Positions 25,937 to 31,323 of a stretch of DNA of 42,756 bases are shown here, in pieces. The position numbers and the translations under genes were made by a program. Every line of letters starts with the position of its first letter. Position 1 is the stretch's first letter. The notes under the pieces were generated by a model. The model was not told the DNA's origin. It saw only the letters and a program-made list of their open reading frames with translations, and searched no databases. Origin of the DNA: a virus. The stretch lies in the UHGV virus genome UHGV-0334807, one strand, 5' to 3'.

Positions 25937-26425
25937 ATGGCTACCAACCCAAGAGAGCACGCCCGGCGAGTGCTGGACACGTTCTGGTGCGGGCGTGGTT
26001 TCCCTGTTGATCCAGCGAAAATTGCTCACGACATGGGATTAGATGTTTTTATTACCGATCTTCCTGGGAAAGTTTCTGGCGCACTGATTAAACAAAAAGA
26101 TCAAGATCCAGCGATCTTTCTAAACAGTGATGACAACAAAGTTCGTCAACGTTTTTCATGTGGGCATGAGTTGGGGCATTACATCGCCCGGCAAGCATCG
26201 CATAGCGATGAATATGAGTACGTTGATTTACGTGGCGAAACCGCAAGCGCCGGAACGCATCCTGATGAAATTTTTGCAAACAAGTTCGCAGCAGAACTTC
26301 TGATGCCGGTAGATGAGGTCAGAAAACTGCACGCTGACGGTCAACCAAGTTATATAATGGCGCATTATTTTGGCGTATCTGACGATGCGATGACTTATCG
26401 TTTAAAGAACTTGAGGTTGGGGTAA
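25937..26425 (+). CDS. ImmA/IrrE-family zinc metallopeptidase (HEXXH)
   Basis: 162 aa with RQRFSCGHELGHY (HEXXH) and FANKFAAELLMP motifs; GGAGG ribosome-binding site. Confidence 0.7.
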   Translation: MATNPREHARRVLDTFWCGRGFPVDPAKIAHDMGLDVFITDLPGKVSGALIKQKDQDPAIFLNSDDNKVRQRFSCGHELGHYIARQASHSDEYEYVDLRGETASAGTHPDEIFANKFAAELLMPVDEVRKLHADGQPSYIMAHYFGVSDDAMTYRLKNLRLG

Positions 26426-26434
26426 CGCTTTAAA

Positions 26435-27040
26435 ATGCCATCGGATGACGATTTTAACAGCCGTTTCAAACAGGAAGTAGCACGCAGACTGAAGGATTCC
26501 CTCAACCTACACCGTCAGTTAGCAGAAGAGGTTGAGCCGGAGGACGATGAAACTCCGGTTCAGTCTCCTGACGAAGCTTCACCTCAGCCAAAGGTTTCGC
26601 ACGCCCCCAAAAAAACGGCTGTCCGTATTCGCGGAATAGCCAGAAAAAGAGCTGCCGAAGCTCGCAAAATGGCTGTAGCTGCGTCTAGCAAAAGAATTCC
26701 AACTGCTACACCCTCTCAACAAGTCACCCGTACTGAGAGTAAAATCTTGACCGAGTTCACATCTGTGAAACAGGTGAATTCACTTGATACCGAGCATGAG
26801 CGCAAACAACTCAACAACAAAGATTTTGAAGCAGAAATCGCTCTAAAAAAACGATACGGGAAATGGTTCCTGATTATCCTTGCTTTCCAACTTCTGATAA
26901 TGAATGGTGTATTTATTGCCGACGGCGCAGGTAAGCTGGAATTTGAGGATTTAACACTACAGTTGTACATGGGCGGTACTTTGACAGAGGTATTCGGCCT
27001 CGTGCTGGTCGTGACAAAATACCTTTTTAAACGCAAGTAA
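26435..27040 (+). CDS. membrane-anchored protein, basic disordered N-terminal region and two C-terminal TM helices
   Basis: 201 aa; starts 10 bp after the peptidase stop (operon); C-terminal WFLIILAFQLLIMNGVFI and TLTEVFGLVLVVT hydrophobic segments. Confidence 0.55.
   Translation: MPSDDDFNSRFKQEVARRLKDSLNLHRQLAEEVEPEDDETPVQSPDEASPQPKVSHAPKKTAVRIRGIARKRAAEARKMAVAASSKRIPTATPSQQVTRTESKILTEFTSVKQVNSLDTEHERKQLNNKDFEAEIALKKRYGKWFLIILAFQLLIMNGVFIADGAGKLEFEDLTLQLYMGGTLTEVFGLVLVVTKYLFKRK
26969..27040 (+). repeat. direct repeat copy 1 (last 23 codons of the 201 aa gene)
   Basis: About 90 percent identical to 30391..30462, which has mostly synonymous changes and a different stop codon. Confidence 0.75.
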
Positions 27041-27502
27041 CTCTCTCGGTCCAACAGTCTTTCGAAGGCCCTGATCAAAGGGCCTTGATAAATTAGCAGT
27101 GCGTTGAAAACAGATAGTTATTCCCATCAGTTCCAACGTAATACACATCAAAAAAATCACCATTCTTTTGCTCTAACGTCAACACCTACCCTTAAAAAAA
27201 TAATTCTCCAAGAATGAGAAAGTTATTGTGTGTATTAGATAAGATATGAGCTGACACATCTATGGCGTGGAGCCAAATTTAATATGACAGTCCGCTCTGT
27301 GCCATAAGCGGACTGTCAATAAACAGATTCACTTGTAAATCTTGAAGCTATACATATTTACTTTCAATGATAAATAAAAGAACTATCCAAAAATCACTGA
27401 GAGCATATTTTAACTAACCCTCCGCTACTATTAACATAAATTTCACCCAACCATAATTAAATTGATACATATAGCAACTTACCTTGATACGAATCATCTG
27501 GG

Positions 27503-28201
27503 TTATATTTTTCCATATTTTTTTCCGTCAAATCGAATCATGCCAGGATCAAGAAAATTAATTAAATCGATTAACGCGTGCTGTATTCTGATTAGCCTTT
27601 CTTTATAAATTCCGATATCTCTTGTCATATTTATCACTTCATTGTTTAAATCTAAAAAAAATGGCTCATTGATAAAGCAATTTTCCTTTGTGAAACTGCC
27701 GTAACCTATGCAATCAAATCCAGTATCTGTTGATATCAGCATCTTTTCTGCAATAGCTCTCTGCTCTCCTATGAAAAACATAAAATACTGACCAAAGACG
27801 TCTGTTTGGATTAATGAGTTAATATTGTTCTGTAATCTAATAAACTCCCTCATTTTTTTATTTTTTTCTAGGCTAAGGTATTGAATGTCTATGCGGGCAG
27901 CTTCTGTCCATGCAAAAAACTGGGAAAAAAGAAAAACAGTATTGTTGATAACATAATCTTGTTGGCGCTTATTCCCATTATGATAAAACTCTTCAATGAA
28001 CCCCAATTCTAATATATTATAAATACGGCTTTGTAAGTCTGAAGCTGAGCGAATTAACGGTTCAATATAGTACTGATGTTTTCTCCTTACATCCAGTGAT
28101 TCATTGAGCTTGTTTATTCTATTCTGATTATAAGTAGATATAGCAATAGAGATTATAGCTATTGCACCACTAATAAAGCTTGAAATTAATGCCGTACCCA
28201 T
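27503..28201 (-). CDS. membrane protein with one N-terminal TM helix and aromatic-rich soluble domain (unknown function)
   Basis: 232 aa, AT-rich codon usage, AAAGGA ribosome-binding site; flanked by long AT-rich noncoding DNA. Confidence 0.55.
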   Translation of the reverse strand: MGTALISSFISGAIAIISIAISTYNQNRINKLNESLDVRRKHQYYIEPLIRSASDLQSRIYNILELGFIEEFYHNGNKRQQDYVINNTVFLFSQFFAWTEAARIDIQYLSLEKNKKMREFIRLQNNINSLIQTDVFGQYFMFFIGEQRAIAEKMLISTDTGFDCIGYGSFTKENCFINEPFFLDLNNEVINMTRDIGIYKERLIRIQHALIDLINFLDPGMIRFDGKKYGKI

Positions 28202-29388
28202 CTAAAAGTCCTTTGATTCTTGCTTGGTTAACAAAATGACATAATTTTATTTAATGCCATAACAACTTAACAATATATCATAATATGATTATTATGGTGT
28301 AGCTTGTCGCATCTACGCTCCATTACAAACAGATGTAAGATATAACCTATATGTTTTAGCCAGCAAATTCGAAAGCATTCAAAGTAGTCTCATCGAACTC
28401 TCGAAACCCTATGTCTTCGGGTATAAAATATTTAAATCCATTTGCATAATATCGACTCATGTTTATTATATTCTCCCCATTCACCATTAAGATTTGACAT
28501 TATTTTCAACAATCGGTTATTGCAAGATTGAAATATATTTTTACTTGACACAATATTCCATGTAGCCCAGCGATTCGACTTACCCCCAACTATACGGACA
28601 ATCTAAATTAAATCGATGATTTTTTGATACATTCTCCTCTCTCCATTACTTTATGTTTTTGTTCCCCAAAAATACCTTGCTCTCTAAAAAATAATTGTTC
28701 TTTAAGTTCAAAATCGAGATCTACATGAGCGTTAGATACAAAGCTAATATGTTGAAATGTCTTTCCCCCCCCATAACGGCATTGTTATCTAAACTATGTT
28801 ACACAAATATAATATTACCCTTTCAACGTAATCCAAGAATAAGATTAATGCCATTATATATATCATAAATATGATATTTTGTATATTTTTATCATTTAGC
28901 CTTGATTGTACTAGGTGTACTCTCAACGAAGTAGGGAAAGTCTGTTCCTCGCTCACAGCTGCCCTTCAGTAAGCGAAAAAATGCCTACTCGGTGCCATAT
29001 ACAGCCATTGTTATTAACAGCAGGGAATAATTCAAAACTGAAATTAAATATCTACCTTTTACAGTAGAAATAGTTCCTCCAGGACACTATCCATTGCCGG
29101 GCACAATCACTCGGGGTATAACGATATAAAATATGTTCATGATAGTGCAGGTTCGTATATTAAGTTCAGCAGCGAAAACATGCCTTACAGGTTTCCGGTT
29201 TTGGGAGCGTCGTTACAGGATCCTGCGCATACCGTTCCCATCTGTTGAATTAAAGGTTTCACAGCCTTTGCCGATATCACCTTTTACCTTACCTGTGATG
29301 CGTTCAGTGCTCAGCGTTGTTTACTGTAGCTCTCGGGACTGATTACAGACCGCGTCTTAAAAACCAATCCTTACTCTAAAGGGAATTC

Positions 29389-30312
29389 ATGAGATTAAAA
29401 TACTCAGTACTCTTACTCGCCATTGCCCTTACAGGCTGTGATAACAAAAAAGATGAGATCGGTTGTTCTTCGGAAATAACCCAGTCAGCTCTCATGGATT
29501 TATTAAAAAAATCTGCTTATGAAGGACTCTCTGAACAGGTCGATAAATACCCTGATGTCACTAATCAGACCAAACGAAGCACACTGGACAAGATCAAACT
29601 AGCCATCTCTGAGATCTCCACAACATCAAGTGACACGGGCAGCACAATGAAAACTTGTGAAGGGACCGTGACGATGACTCTATCTGCGAACGAGTACGTC
29701 CAGCTTTCAGATGCTTACAGAAAGAATTTTAATCGTAATCTCGATAAGCAAATGGAAAGCCTGTTTTTGGAGAACAACGCAAACGCCTTTTCAAAACGTA
29801 TCACCTACACCGTGCAGGCGACCGACGATCAGAAAAACGTTTTTGTAAAAACCTCTACTGATAATCCGATATCAGTGGGCGCCGCTTTACTGACATCGCT
29901 TTCCATTATCACCCCGATCGTTGAGCAGCAGAAAATCCAGCAGGCTAAGGATGCCCAACAGAGTCAAATTGAAGCGGAACAACAGGTGCAACTCAGGGCG
30001 CAAGAACAGGCTAAGTATGAGGCGGAGAAGCAAATAGAGAGACAGGCACAACTTCAGCCGCAAAAAGCTGACAACCTTGATCAGTCCCGAATGGCATTTG
30101 CGAATGCCGACTCTGATTTGAGTACCGTCTGGAGCAAGTTAACCCCGGCGAAGAAAAAAGATTTGCTGCCTTCTCAGCGTCAGTGGATCAAAACTAAGGA
30201 TGCTATGTGCGGTAAAGTTTCAATGCAGGGAACAGATGCTGAAGTCAAGAAAATGGTCGACTGCCAGACGCAAATGACCCTTTCAAGAATCGCTTTCCTC
30301 AGAAACCAATAA
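29389..30312 (+). CDS. lipoprotein with Gln-rich coiled coil and DUF1311-like (LprI-like) C-terminal domain
   Basis: Signal peptide with lipobox LTGC; C-terminus with two Cys and QRQW motif resembling DUF1311. Confidence 0.5.
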   Translation: MRLKYSVLLLAIALTGCDNKKDEIGCSSEITQSALMDLLKKSAYEGLSEQVDKYPDVTNQTKRSTLDKIKLAISEISTTSSDTGSTMKTCEGTVTMTLSANEYVQLSDAYRKNFNRNLDKQMESLFLENNANAFSKRITYTVQATDDQKNVFVKTSTDNPISVGAALLTSLSIITPIVEQQKIQQAKDAQQSQIEAEQQVQLRAQEQAKYEAEKQIERQAQLQPQKADNLDQSRMAFANADSDLSTVWSKLTPAKKKDLLPSQRQWIKTKDAMCGKVSMQGTDAEVKKMVDCQTQMTLSRIAFLRNQ

Positions 30313-30486: not shown

Positions 30487-31323
30487 TCAAAATGCTGAAT
30501 TAGCAACGGATATAGCCGACTTTTTCCCCATTACCATCAATTTATCCAGTGTCATACTTCGCAGATTGTCGCTGTGGATCACCAGATACCCTGCCCGCTC
30601 AGCGATCTCTTTGAAAGCGTCAAAGGTCATCAGATGTTCGCCTTTGGCAACATGGCGCATCCCGGTCACTTTTCCATTTTTGATAGTGGTGATAAAAGAA
30701 AAATCTGGAATGGTTGGGTGATTTTCATCGAGTAGCAGGCAGTGGATGTATTCAATCGCCTCTAACATTTGCGTCTGTGACAGTTGTTCTATGTGAGAGA
30801 CGGCGAAGCGTTGATGAATCATGGTGTAGGCATCGGGATACATCATGCCTTTCTTGCCGACCAGTATATTAACGGCATCACGCAAGGGAGTACGGTCATC
30901 GGTAGTTGTACTCCGCCTCTCTGGACGCTGGCTAAAATAACAATCTTCCAGCTTTTCGAAAACTTCCCAGGCCTGTTCTGTTTCCAGCATTTTGGCATGG
31001 CGAGCTGCGCCGCGTTCTGTCCAGAGAATGAGGGATCGGGTATGTTTAGCAACTGACTGACTATCTGTCAGTCTGTTTTTGAAGTCGCGTAATTCATTAC
31101 CTTCCAGCTTAAAAAAATGCTTTCCTACGACAAATCTGGCGATGTTGCGCTTGAAGTTTTGCTGGATACCATTTACTTCCGTGCCATACAAACTGGCAAG
31201 CAATTCAGTAGTGATGACGGGAAGTTGGTTATGATGTAGCGGAGAAAGGGATTCCGCAGATATTTGGACTGTCATCGCAGTGGCCTCACTTAGTGTTTTT
31301 TTCATCACCACCAGCGACGCCAA
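30487..31323 (-). CDS. antirepressor-like protein (ORF6N/AntA-type N-terminal domain)
   Basis: N-terminal region VITTELLASLYGTEVNGIQQNFKRNIARF; probable true start MTVQ at about 31275 with GAGG ribosome-binding site. Confidence 0.55.
   Translation of the reverse strand: MASLVVMKKTLSEATAMTVQISAESLSPLHHNQLPVITTELLASLYGTEVNGIQQNFKRNIARFVVGKHFFKLEGNELRDFKNRLTDSQSVAKHTRSLILWTERGAARHAKMLETEQAWEVFEKLEDCYFSQRPERRSTTTDDRTPLRDAVNILVGKKGMMYPDAYTMIHQRFAVSHIEQLSQTQMLEAIEYIHCLLLDENHPTIPDFSFITTIKNGKVTGMRHVAKGEHLMTFDAFKEIAERAGYLVIHSDNLRSMTLDKLMVMGKKSAISVANSAF

What the first reader, a model, noticed from the sequence alone, without database searches (positions are those of the whole stretch)
27503..28201. 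Orphan N-terminally anchored membrane protein with its own promoter in AT-rich DNA
A 232 aa protein with one N-terminal TM helix and an aromatic-rich soluble domain is encoded on the opposite strand from its neighbours, with about 460 bp and 1.2 kb of very AT-rich noncoding DNA on either side. This single-gene, self-contained layout inside a prophage accessory island is characteristic of superinfection-exclusion or abortive-infection genes, but the sequence has no motif I recognise.
Basis: inference. Interest (0 to 1): 0.5.

Follow-up and report, generated by a model that had tools for sequence, protein, structure and literature searches.

The report
Orphan relative of RT-defence membrane partner
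This is a real, conserved, horizontally mobile prophage gene for a single-pass membrane protein that is a distant, stand-alone relative of the membrane partner of a validated reverse-transcriptase anti-phage system, which makes it a good but untested candidate single-gene phage-defence module in pandemic E. coli ST131.

Summary
The ORF (27503-28201, minus strand, 232 aa) is real. It has one N-terminal TM helix and a Shine-Dalgarno site. dN/dS is 0.25 against an 87%-identical copy, and 22 columns are invariant across 55 homologs. The window is a lambdoid prophage of E. coli ST131.

The gene lies in a ~1.7 kb AT-rich cassette (~27279-28970) with imperfect inverted-repeat ends. The same cassette occupies the Z/fun slot of P2-like phages (deposited in 2002 as "putative lysogenic protein") and a CP4-type island. 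In sibling prophages the same slot carries a GIY-YIG nuclease cargo instead.

All 55 family members hit PADLOC "RTasTM", the 1-TM protein needed by the validated RT-nitrilase+1TM defence system of E. coli E101 (hhalign 96.4%, E 1.3e-9). Predicted helix order is colinear.

Unlike that partner, this family is never next to an RT (0 of 10 contexts; positive controls 3 of 3). It is also much larger (~1,900 50%-identity clusters). Rare members are fused to an S1 protease or a LuxR HTH.

Best reading: a stand-alone, membrane-anchored sensor/effector acting in abortive infection or exclusion. Function is inferred, not shown. The fold has no informative structural neighbour.

The parts
27503..28201 (-). 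CDS, 232 aa. It encodes a single-pass membrane protein (EC958_RS10645, WP_000536231.1) of the family named 'lysogenic protein' (phrog_5606).
   Evidence: ORF call. RefSeq annotation. phrog_5606 E 7e-163. 290 homologs and 22 invariant columns. dN/dS 0.25. AlphaFold pLDDT 86.9.
28130..28195 (-). Codons 3-24, the only hydrophobic (transmembrane) segment. It is followed by a net-positive stretch (R28, K31, R38, R39, K40), which predicts N-out/C-in topology with the conserved domain in the cytoplasm.
   Evidence: Hydropathy scan and charge count. Helix 3-65 in the model. The topology is inferred from the positive-inside rule.
28209..28214 (-). Shine-Dalgarno sequence AAAGGA, 7 nt before the ATG.
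   Evidence: Sequence. The same hexamer is annotated as the RBS in AJ512683 and maps to these coordinates.
28244..28273 (-). Candidate proximal promoter (TTGTTA, 18 nt spacer, TAAAAT). Unverified and not well conserved in P2-EC58.
   Evidence: Consensus scan, 9 of 12 matches, with the number of sites no higher than chance. Read against the P2-EC58 alignment.
28202..28935 (-). AT-rich non-coding upstream part of the cassette. It must hold the promoter and leader. The small ORF 28356-28487 is not conserved. IS1 has inserted here in some ST131 strains without disrupting the gene.
   Evidence: 75-86% identity with indels against P2-EC58. Frame-breaking differences seen in the alignment. No Rfam match. 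No match elsewhere in the phage collection. IS1 position.
27285..27318 (-). Perfect 13-bp-stem hairpin with tail TATTAAATTT, about 185 nt after the stop codon. It is a likely intrinsic terminator and also forms the left inverted-repeat end of the cassette.
   Evidence: Terminator scan. Unique in the window, 0 expected by chance. Conserved in P2-EC58, TUM11352 and phage P2.
28936..28975 (.). Right end of the cassette, the imperfect inverted copy of the left end (…GAAAGTCTGTTCCTCGCTCACAGCTGCCCTTCAG).
   Evidence: In P2-EC58 the arms are 37 nt and 76% complementary. In the window, 21 of 33 positions match. Three-way similarity ends here. The same motif flanks fun(Z) in P2 and ends the GIY-YIG cargo in W284.
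27279..28970 (.). Portable ~1.7 kb cassette: terminator/left repeat, CDS, upstream region, right repeat. It is shared with the P2-like Z region and with a CP4-type island.
   Evidence: Alignments. Contexts. Present in 419 of 5426 E. coli genomes.
27048..28990 (.). Variable slot of this prophage family, between the ImmA/201-aa gene pair and the LprI gene. Sibling prophages carry a GIY-YIG nuclease cargo here.
   Evidence: W284 and GF43 loci. Junction alignments.

Best explanation
Shown. The ORF is a genuine gene under purifying selection. It encodes a ~230-aa protein with one N-terminal TM helix, a long stalk helix and a compact, mostly helical domain with many invariant polar residues (D55, Q57, S58, R59, N62, Q94, E100, R103, E146, Q147, R148, D218).

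The gene is carried on a ~1.7 kb AT-rich cassette bounded by inverted repeats. That cassette has moved between P2-like phages (Z/fun slot), this ST131 lambdoid prophage and a CP4-type island.

The protein family is a remote homolog of 'RTasTM', the 1-TM protein encoded right after the RT-nitrilase gene in the validated RT-nitrilase+1TM (UG5-large) defence system. Members of this family are encoded alone.

Inferred. The protein is a stand-alone, inner-membrane-anchored module with an N-out/C-in topology. Its cytoplasmic helical domain senses an infection cue directly, taking over the role the RT-nitrilase plays in the two-gene system. It then acts through the membrane anchor, probably by oligomerising and compromising membrane integrity. 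The outcome would be abortive infection or exclusion of a superinfecting phage, which benefits the prophage that carries the gene.

The trigger, the oligomeric state and the phage targets are unknown.
For: Reality and selection.

Architecture: hydropathy and the AlphaFold model (pLDDT 86.9, pTM 0.79).

Homology to the defence component:
- All 55 members hit PADLOC RTasTM PDLC03799 (best E 9.8e-11), and 43 hit PDLC03013.
- The E101 protein 2 from Rousset et al. 2022 (PMC9122126, supplementary file 3) is that family (E 5e-164).
- hhalign of the family against the E101 protein gives 95.6% probability, E 1.2e-8.
- Family against family gives 96.4%, E 1.3e-9, over 130 columns. The shared residues are Y83, T88, Q94, W98, R103, E146-Q147, I150-G151, C164, Y167 and F170.
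- Plain tblastn of the E101 protein hits two family members at E 5e-8 and 2e-6.
- Secondary-structure order is colinear in the two independent models.

What is known about the partner: it is described as a transmembrane effector of a system that protects against phage, and is reported to be necessary in that system.

Solitary state:
- No RVT_1 or CN_hydrolase neighbour in 10 of 10 contexts.
- No tblastn trace of an RT-nitrilase in the window or in the loci.
- All 3 RT-linked controls show the RT gene overlapping the TM gene.

Defence-type neighbourhoods:
- The P2 Z/fun slot.
- The P2 integrase-att hotspot beside an AAA_15/DUF4435 pair.
- A position next to SIR2+HerA.
- A position among PIN/MqsA/MNT toxin-antitoxin genes.
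- A swap with a GIY-YIG nuclease cargo in sibling prophages.
- The tail-gene slot of P2 is a recognised hotspot for defence and accessory genes (PMC13586616).
Against: No experiment links this family to phage resistance, and I found no paper that mentions the protein.

The homolog is only known to work together with an RT-nitrilase. DRT1 and a UG5-large system also work without any TM partner, so the partner's own activity is undefined.

No dedicated defence HMM (PADLOC), Pfam model or NCBIfam model covers the family.

Fusions of the domain to an S1 protease or a LuxR HTH fit a sensor or regulator at least as well as a pore-former.

Two of the ten contexts look like ordinary chromosome. The neighbourhood evidence is anecdotal and was not tested statistically.
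Confidence: 0.5

Rival explanations
1. Non-abortive superinfection exclusion. The inner-membrane protein blocks genome entry or an early membrane-associated step of incoming phages without harming the host, in the way small prophage-encoded membrane proteins such as HK97 gp15, T4 Imm or P22 SieA do.
For: It is a single membrane-anchored gene, it must be expressed from the prophage on its own because it lies opposite its neighbours, and it occupies the same slot as the lysogenic-conversion gene fun(Z), which blocks T5. The depositors called it a 'lysogenic protein'.
Against: There is no sequence or profile similarity to any characterised exclusion protein; the PHROG hits carry no function. The conserved domain is predicted to be cytoplasmic and has an invariant polar network, which fits a sensor or enzyme better than a passive plug. 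Its only recognisable relative belongs to a system reminiscent of type I DRT, whose transmembrane component is described as an effector; transmembrane effectors in such systems are generally believed to trigger cell suicide. Homologs also occur outside prophages, in islets and on the chromosome.
Confidence: 0.2
2. Effector working in trans. The protein is the membrane effector for reverse-transcriptase or other nucleic-acid-synthesising defence enzymes encoded elsewhere in the cell, such as Abi-P2, retrons or DRTs. It would be gated by their DNA products, as proposed for Drt1b by analogy with Hailong HalA/HalB.
For: It is homologous to an RT partner. P2-EC58-type phages that carry the cassette also carry an Abi-P2-type RT and retron Ec48 about 16-19 kb away. 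The DRT1 paper proposes DNA-adduct gating of a TM partner.
Against: The window (42.7 kb) has no RT. The cassette also sits in a lambdoid prophage and in a CP4-type island, and homologs in 10 of 10 contexts lack a nearby RT. True RT partners are translationally coupled to their RT gene. There is no similarity to HalA in the PDB sequence search or in the listed fold matches. Retron Ec48 already has its own membrane effector.
Confidence: 0.1
3. A membrane-anchored sensor or regulatory module with no direct role in phage defence. Examples would be a lysogenic-conversion or stress-signalling protein that modulates host or prophage physiology.
For: The domain is fused to a LuxR-type HTH in one representative and to an S1 protease in two, which is typical of input domains. 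Some homologs sit among ordinary chromosomal genes. The family is very large and taxonomically broad, reaching Streptomyces plasmids.
Against: Most examined copies sit in mobile or defence-type contexts. The locus shows cargo-swap behaviour. The only functional anchor is a defence system.
Confidence: 0.15
4. A spurious ORF in AT-rich horizontally acquired DNA.
For: GC is low (32%), the neighbourhood is non-coding, and RefSeq annotates the gene as 'hypothetical'.
Against: dN/dS is 0.25, and the CDS has no indels while the flanks do. The PHROG match covers the full length. Homologs reach down to ~35% identity with 22 invariant columns. There are 1,921 cluster representatives. The structure model is confident.
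Confidence: 0.01

Closest known systems
RTasTM, the 1-TM protein of the RT-nitrilase+1TM (UG5-large) defence system of E. coli E101 (Rousset et al. 2022; PADLOC PDLC03013 and PDLC03799)
   Same: The size is about the same (229 against 232 aa). Both have a single N-terminal TM helix, the same order of helices and β-hairpin in the models, and shared invariant residues (Y, T, Q, W, R, EQ, IG, C..Y..F). hhalign gives 96.4%, E 1.3e-9. Both are carried by temperate phages or satellites of Enterobacterales in variable hotspots.
   Different: Identity is only ~22% over 130 columns. The family-specific motif EPL..DLQSR.YN is not shared. This family is never adjacent to an RT-nitrilase, whereas RTasTM overlaps the 3' end of the RT gene. 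The orphan family is far larger and broader: 1,921 representatives at 50% identity (which may include the RT-linked branch) against 29 clusters at 90% identity, all Enterobacterales.
Drt1b, the TM protein found next to ~18% of DRT type 1 (UG1) RT-nitrilase genes
   Same: It is also a small TM protein partnering an RT-nitrilase, with an undefined role. It may be part of the same broad group.
   Different: Only 1 of 55 family members touches the PADLOC Drt1b model, at E 0.005. No RT is present here.
Fun(Z) of phage P2
   Same: It occupies the same genomic slot in P2-like phages, between G (tail-fibre assembly) and FI (sheath). It has the same orientation opposite to the tail genes and the same flanking inverted-repeat motifs. 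Fun(Z) is a lysogenic-conversion gene whose cloned copy blocks T5.
   Different: The proteins are unrelated: 528 aa, hhalign probability 0.3%.
SLATT and other TM effectors of abortive-infection systems (CBASS 2TM, retron Ec48 effector, RexB, Hailong HalA)
   Same: The concept is the same: a small membrane protein in a defence context that is thought to kill or arrest the cell when triggered.
   Different: No Pfam SLATT hit at E ≤ 1. It has one TM helix rather than 2-4. No similarity was detected to any solved structure, including channel or pore proteins, beyond generic helical bundles.

Membership tests
RT-nitrilase+1TM system (PADLOC RTasTM; UG5-large with TM partner) | Sequence match to the RTasTM profile | tested here: met
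   This protein: PDLC03799 E 1.8e-5. 55 of 55 family members hit it, best E 9.8e-11. hhalign 96.4%, E 1.3e-9. This is a remote relationship (~22% identity), not family-level identity.
RT-nitrilase+1TM system (PADLOC RTasTM; UG5-large with TM partner) | ~230-aa protein with one N-terminal TM helix and a helical C-terminal domain | tested here: met
   Hydropathy. Models of both proteins have colinear secondary structure.
RT-nitrilase+1TM system (PADLOC RTasTM; UG5-large with TM partner) | Encoded immediately downstream of, and overlapping, an RT-nitrilase gene | tested here: not met
   No RT or nitrilase in the window annotation. No tblastn trace, best E 0.9. 0 of 10 family contexts have an RVT_1 neighbour. 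Controls are 3 of 3 positive.
RT-nitrilase+1TM system (PADLOC RTasTM; UG5-large with TM partner) | Confers phage resistance together with the RT | not testable with these tools
   This needs plaque assays. Only the E101 system has been tested (PMC9122126).
DRT type 1 partner Drt1b | Match to the Drt1b profile and adjacency to a UG1 RT-nitrilase | tested here: not met
   1 of 55 members at E 0.005. No RT nearby.
SLATT domain effectors | Pfam SLATT profile match and 2-3 TM helices | tested here: not met
   No SLATT family at E ≤ 1 in Pfam. Only one hydrophobic segment.
P2 Fun(Z) | Sequence homology to Fun(Z) | tested here: not met
   hhalign probability 0.3%. Only the genomic slot and its flanking repeats are shared.
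PHROG 5606 ('lysogenic protein' family, function unknown) | Full-length profile match | tested here: met
   E 7.1e-163, residues 1-232 against profile positions 1-232. The NCBI name 'lysogenic protein' appears on homologs.
Hailong HalA-type DNA-gated channel | Sequence or fold similarity to HalA | tested here: inconclusive
Defence-island gene (guilt by association) | Statistical enrichment next to known defence genes | not tested
   Only 10 contexts were inspected by eye, and 7-8 of them are mobile or defence-type. No background model was computed.

The most novel reading that the evidence does not exclude
The ~1,900-cluster 'lysogenic protein' family is a widespread, previously unrecognised single-gene immune module. 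It would be the free-living form of the TM partner that RT-nitrilase systems later recruited. Its cytoplasmic helical domain would itself recognise an infection-derived ligand (possibly a nucleic acid or a nucleotide product) and switch the single TM helix into a membrane-disrupting oligomer. Studying it would then reveal what Drt1b and RTasTM do in DRT1 and UG5 systems, which is currently unknown.
Probability: 0.3. Interest if true: 0.7.

Novelty: new variant of a known kind. Interest (0 to 1): 0.5.

Why it matters
The role of the membrane partner in RT-nitrilase defence systems (DRT1/Drt1b and UG5-large) is unresolved. It is required in some systems and dispensable in others.

A much larger family of stand-alone relatives offers a simpler handle on what this domain senses and does. 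These relatives move as a single-gene cassette through recognised phage hotspots.

If the gene is active, it adds a single-gene defence or exclusion determinant that is fixed in the prophage complement of the pandemic ST131 lineage. It is present in about 410 of 5,426 complete E. coli genomes, and it is relevant to phage-therapy host range.

It would also show that current defence finders miss solitary relatives of multi-gene system components.

Tried and rejected
- Pfam and NCBIfam gave nothing usable: one sub-threshold TM-only hit to CNNM, and zero NCBIfam hits.
- The PDB sequence search with the family profile gave only a chance hit at E 0.91.
- Rfam on 26900-29500 at E ≤ 1 gave no RNA family.
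- The upstream 1.2 kb as a decayed RT-nitrilase gene: rejected. There is no tblastn signal. Homologs elsewhere have short upstream regions of 0-305 bp. The upstream DNA is found only with the cassette in the phage collection.
- The small ORF 28356-28487 (43 aa) as a partner gene: rejected. It is disrupted by indels and a premature stop in the P2-EC58 copy (read from the alignment).
- The depositors' promoter is not conserved in this copy; its -10 reads TAGGGT.
- Fun(Z) homology: rejected.
- Nilsson et al. 2004 and Odegrip et al. 2006, which first described the P2-EC58 loci, are not held in the library. What they concluded about the inverted repeats could not be checked.
- A literature search for WP_000536231 returned no papers.

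Full report
**1. Observation**

Both neighbouring genes are on the plus strand: a 201-aa protein at 26435-27040 and an LprI-family protein at 29389-30312. The gaps are 462 bp and 1187 bp at ~36% GC. The window is 48% GC overall and the CDS is 32% GC.

There is one hydrophobic segment, residues ~3-24, followed by a positively charged stretch. Aromatic content is 13.3%.

A Shine-Dalgarno sequence AAAGGA lies 7 nt before the ATG. A 13-bp-stem hairpin with a T/A-rich tail lies ~185 nt after the stop codon.

A promoter must exist upstream because of the gene's orientation, but it cannot be pinned down. Promoter-like hexamers are at chance frequency in this AT-rich DNA. The -10 proposed by the depositors of a related sequence is not conserved here.

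**2. The gene is real**

- It matches phrog_5606 end to end, E 7e-163.
- It has 290 homologs in the word-indexed search and 1,921 cluster representatives in the exhaustive profile search.
- An alignment of 55 homologs down to ~35% identity has 22 invariant columns. The motifs are EPL..DLQSR.YN, Y..NT.F..AQ.FAWTE..R, GEQRAIGE, C.GY..F and ALIDL..FLDP.
- Against an independent copy of the cassette, the CDS is 94% identical with no gaps. The flanks are 75-86% identical with indels, and dN/dS is 0.25.

**3. Where it is**

The window is a lambdoid prophage of E. coli ST131, identical in EC958, JJ1886 and others. The gene lies between the Q/late region and the replication genes.

The gene and its AT-rich flanks form a discrete ~1.7 kb cassette (~27279-28970). 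That cassette recurs in three contexts:

- At 87% identity it is the 'Z-region ORF1, putative lysogenic protein' of phage P2-EC58. It also sits in P2-like prophages between the tail-fibre assembly and tail sheath genes.
- At 99.5% identity, encoding the identical protein, it sits in a CP4-type island next to dynamin-family, patatin-like and RdcB genes in strain TUM11352.
- It is present in 419 of 5,426 complete E. coli genomes. 409 of those copies are ≥99% identical, which is the clonal ST131 prophage.

The cassette ends are imperfect inverted repeats (37 nt, 76% complementary in P2-EC58). The same repeat motifs flank fun(Z) in phage P2 itself. The ST131 copy retains ~30 nt of P2-type backbone on its left side. 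The module therefore most likely originated in a P2-type Z slot.

In sibling lambdoid prophages (strains W284 and GF43), the slot between the ImmA/201-aa pair and the LprI gene carries a different minus-strand cargo: a GIY-YIG nuclease family gene plus two small ORFs. The backbone similarity breaks at ~27048-27062 and resumes at ~28990. This is the cargo-swap behaviour described for phage defence hotspots (PMC9122126 and PMC13586616).

**4. What the protein resembles**

Pfam and NCBIfam give nothing.

PADLOC gives a weak hit to 'RTasTM' (E 1.8e-5). The hit becomes systematic across the family: 55 of 55 members, best E 9.8e-11.

I recovered the sequence of the 1-TM protein of the experimentally validated 'RT-nitrilase + 1TM' system of E. 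coli E101 from the supplement of Rousset et al. 2022.

- That protein is the RTasTM family, E 5e-164.
- hhalign of the orphan family against it gives 95.6% probability, E 1.2e-8.
- Against an alignment of 15 RT-linked proteins it gives 96.4%, E 1.3e-9, over 130 columns. The invariant residues of both families coincide.
- Plain tblastn of the E101 protein hits two environmental members of the orphan family at E 5e-8 and 2e-6.
- Independent AlphaFold models of the two proteins (pLDDT 86.9 and 84.5) have the same order of elements over the full length: TM helix, very long stalk helix, three helices, β-hairpin, short helix, two helices.

The homology is remote (~22% identity) but well supported.

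**5. What is different**

The RT-linked protein is always encoded right after a ~960-aa RT-nitrilase gene and overlaps its 3' end. This holds in the E. coli M19 P4-like satellite and in Pantoea and Pectobacterium.

The orphan family is never in that arrangement. None of the 10 contexts examined has an RVT_1 or nitrilase neighbour:

- the ST131 prophage;
- the P2-like Z slot;
- the CP4-type island;
- a Providencia P2 remnant;
- Xanthomonadaceae, next to SIR2+HerA;
- Serratia, next to an ORC/Cdc6-like ATPase;
- a toxin-antitoxin islet;
- a Lonsdalea P2-like prophage at the integrase-att hotspot, beside an AAA_15/DUF4435 pair;
- two chromosomal sites.

tblastn finds no remnant of an RT-nitrilase in the window or in any locus.

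The RT-linked family is small (29 clusters at 90% identity, all Enterobacterales). The orphan family is large and broad, reaching Streptomyces plasmids. In E. coli the RT system is in 33 genomes and the orphan cassette is in 419, although the second figure is inflated by ST131 sampling.

**6. Further hints**

About 9 in 10 of the top 150 representatives are 200-300 aa and carry the domain alone.

Two representatives carry a C-terminal streptogrisin-type S1 serine protease with a GDSG motif (PDB 1hpg, E 3e-6). One carries a LuxR-type HTH. The TM-plus-helical unit is therefore modular and can be coupled to different outputs. That weakens a pure 'pore-forming effector' view and allows for a sensor role.

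No structural neighbour is informative.

**7. Most likely mechanism (inferred)**

The protein is anchored in the inner membrane with an N-out/C-in topology. It has a conserved cytoplasmic helical domain with an invariant polar cluster.

By homology with the TM 'effector' of the RT-nitrilase system, and by context, the best reading is a stand-alone sensor/effector. It would respond to an infection cue and act at the membrane, giving abortive infection or growth arrest. Non-abortive exclusion is the main alternative.

Weaker alternatives are action in trans with RT systems encoded elsewhere (P2-EC58-type phages also carry Abi-P2 and retron Ec48) and a non-defence regulatory role.

The steps that are shown are gene reality, selection, architecture, mobility, homology and the solitary state. 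The steps that are inferred are topology, trigger sensing, membrane action and anti-phage function.

**8. Comparison and novelty**

This is not a member of the RT-nitrilase+1TM system, because the defining adjacency to an RT was tested and not met. It is a remote homolog of that system's TM component.

It shares only the genomic slot with P2 Fun(Z) (hhalign probability 0.3%).

The sequence has been in databases since 2002 as a 'putative lysogenic protein'. I found no functional study and no dedicated model in Pfam, NCBIfam or PADLOC.

I rate it a new variant of a known kind: a stand-alone form of a known defence-system component. Interest is moderate (0.5). It is a well-defined candidate that is cheap to test, it could clarify the unresolved role of Drt1b/RTasTM, and it is fixed in a clinically important lineage. 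No unexpected mechanism has yet been demonstrated.

Noticed in passing
window 25937-26425 (+) and 26435-27040 (+): An ImmA/IrrE metallopeptidase hits PADLOC capP (E 2.4e-25) and the RmrA models. It is followed, 9 nt later, by a 201-aa protein with a hydrophobic C-terminal region and no family match. The pair is conserved in sibling prophages at the left edge of the variable slot, so it may be a regulatory or defence module of its own.
   Followed up: partly
L023 6716-8508 (E. coli W284) and L024 (GF43), equivalent to window ~27048-28990: Sibling prophages carry a different cargo in the same slot: a GIY-YIG nuclease family protein (221 aa) flanked by 134-aa and 65-aa hypothetical ORFs, all on the minus strand. 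The right end of this cargo carries a motif similar to the cassette's right inverted repeat.
   Followed up: partly
window ~28650 (equivalent of L019 2936-3633); also strains S9, R10, R13 and WP4-S17-ESBL-03: In several ST131 genomes, IS1 has inserted into the AT-rich upstream region of the cassette, about 450 bp from the ATG. The ORF is left intact. This could alter expression of the gene.
   Followed up: partly
window 30487-31323 (-): The ORF6N-domain protein (annotated from 31275) hits the PADLOC phage-defence-candidate models PDC-S05 (E 1.3e-9).
   Followed up: no
window 27281-27317 and 28936-28975; L026 (phage P2) on either side of fun(Z): The inverted-repeat motifs (AATNTGACAGTCCGCTCTGTGCC … CGCTCANAGCNGNC..TCAG) bound the variable Z slot in P2 and P2-EC58. 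They also travel with the cassette into a lambdoid prophage and a CP4-type island, and a similar motif ends an unrelated cargo. They may be recombination sites; the mechanism is unknown.
   Followed up: partly
L020 938-4927 (E. coli GDAR2-2 P2-like prophage): The P2-EC58-type prophage that carries the cassette in its Z slot also carries an Abi-P2-type RT and retron Ec48 (RT plus membrane effector) in the GpA-portal hotspot. That makes three accessory defence-type loci in one phage.
   Followed up: no
P0129 (557 aa), P0130 (622 aa), P0205 (328 aa): Metagenomic relatives fuse the TM-plus-helical domain to a streptogrisin-type S1 serine protease (with a weak NAL1_N-like hit at the C-terminal end) or to a LuxR-type HTH.
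   Followed up: partly
window 41097-41309 (+): A weak tblastn hit of the E101 RTasTM protein (E 0.022, 29% identity over 73 aa), in the region just upstream of the integrase gene. Probably chance.
   Followed up: no
window 27075-27096 (+): A GC-rich hairpin (AAGGCCCTGATCAAAGGGCCTT) lies just after the stop codon of the 201-aa gene. It is a likely terminator. It lies in the ~200 bp of slot DNA that is shared neither with the sibling prophages nor with the portable cassette.
   Followed up: no
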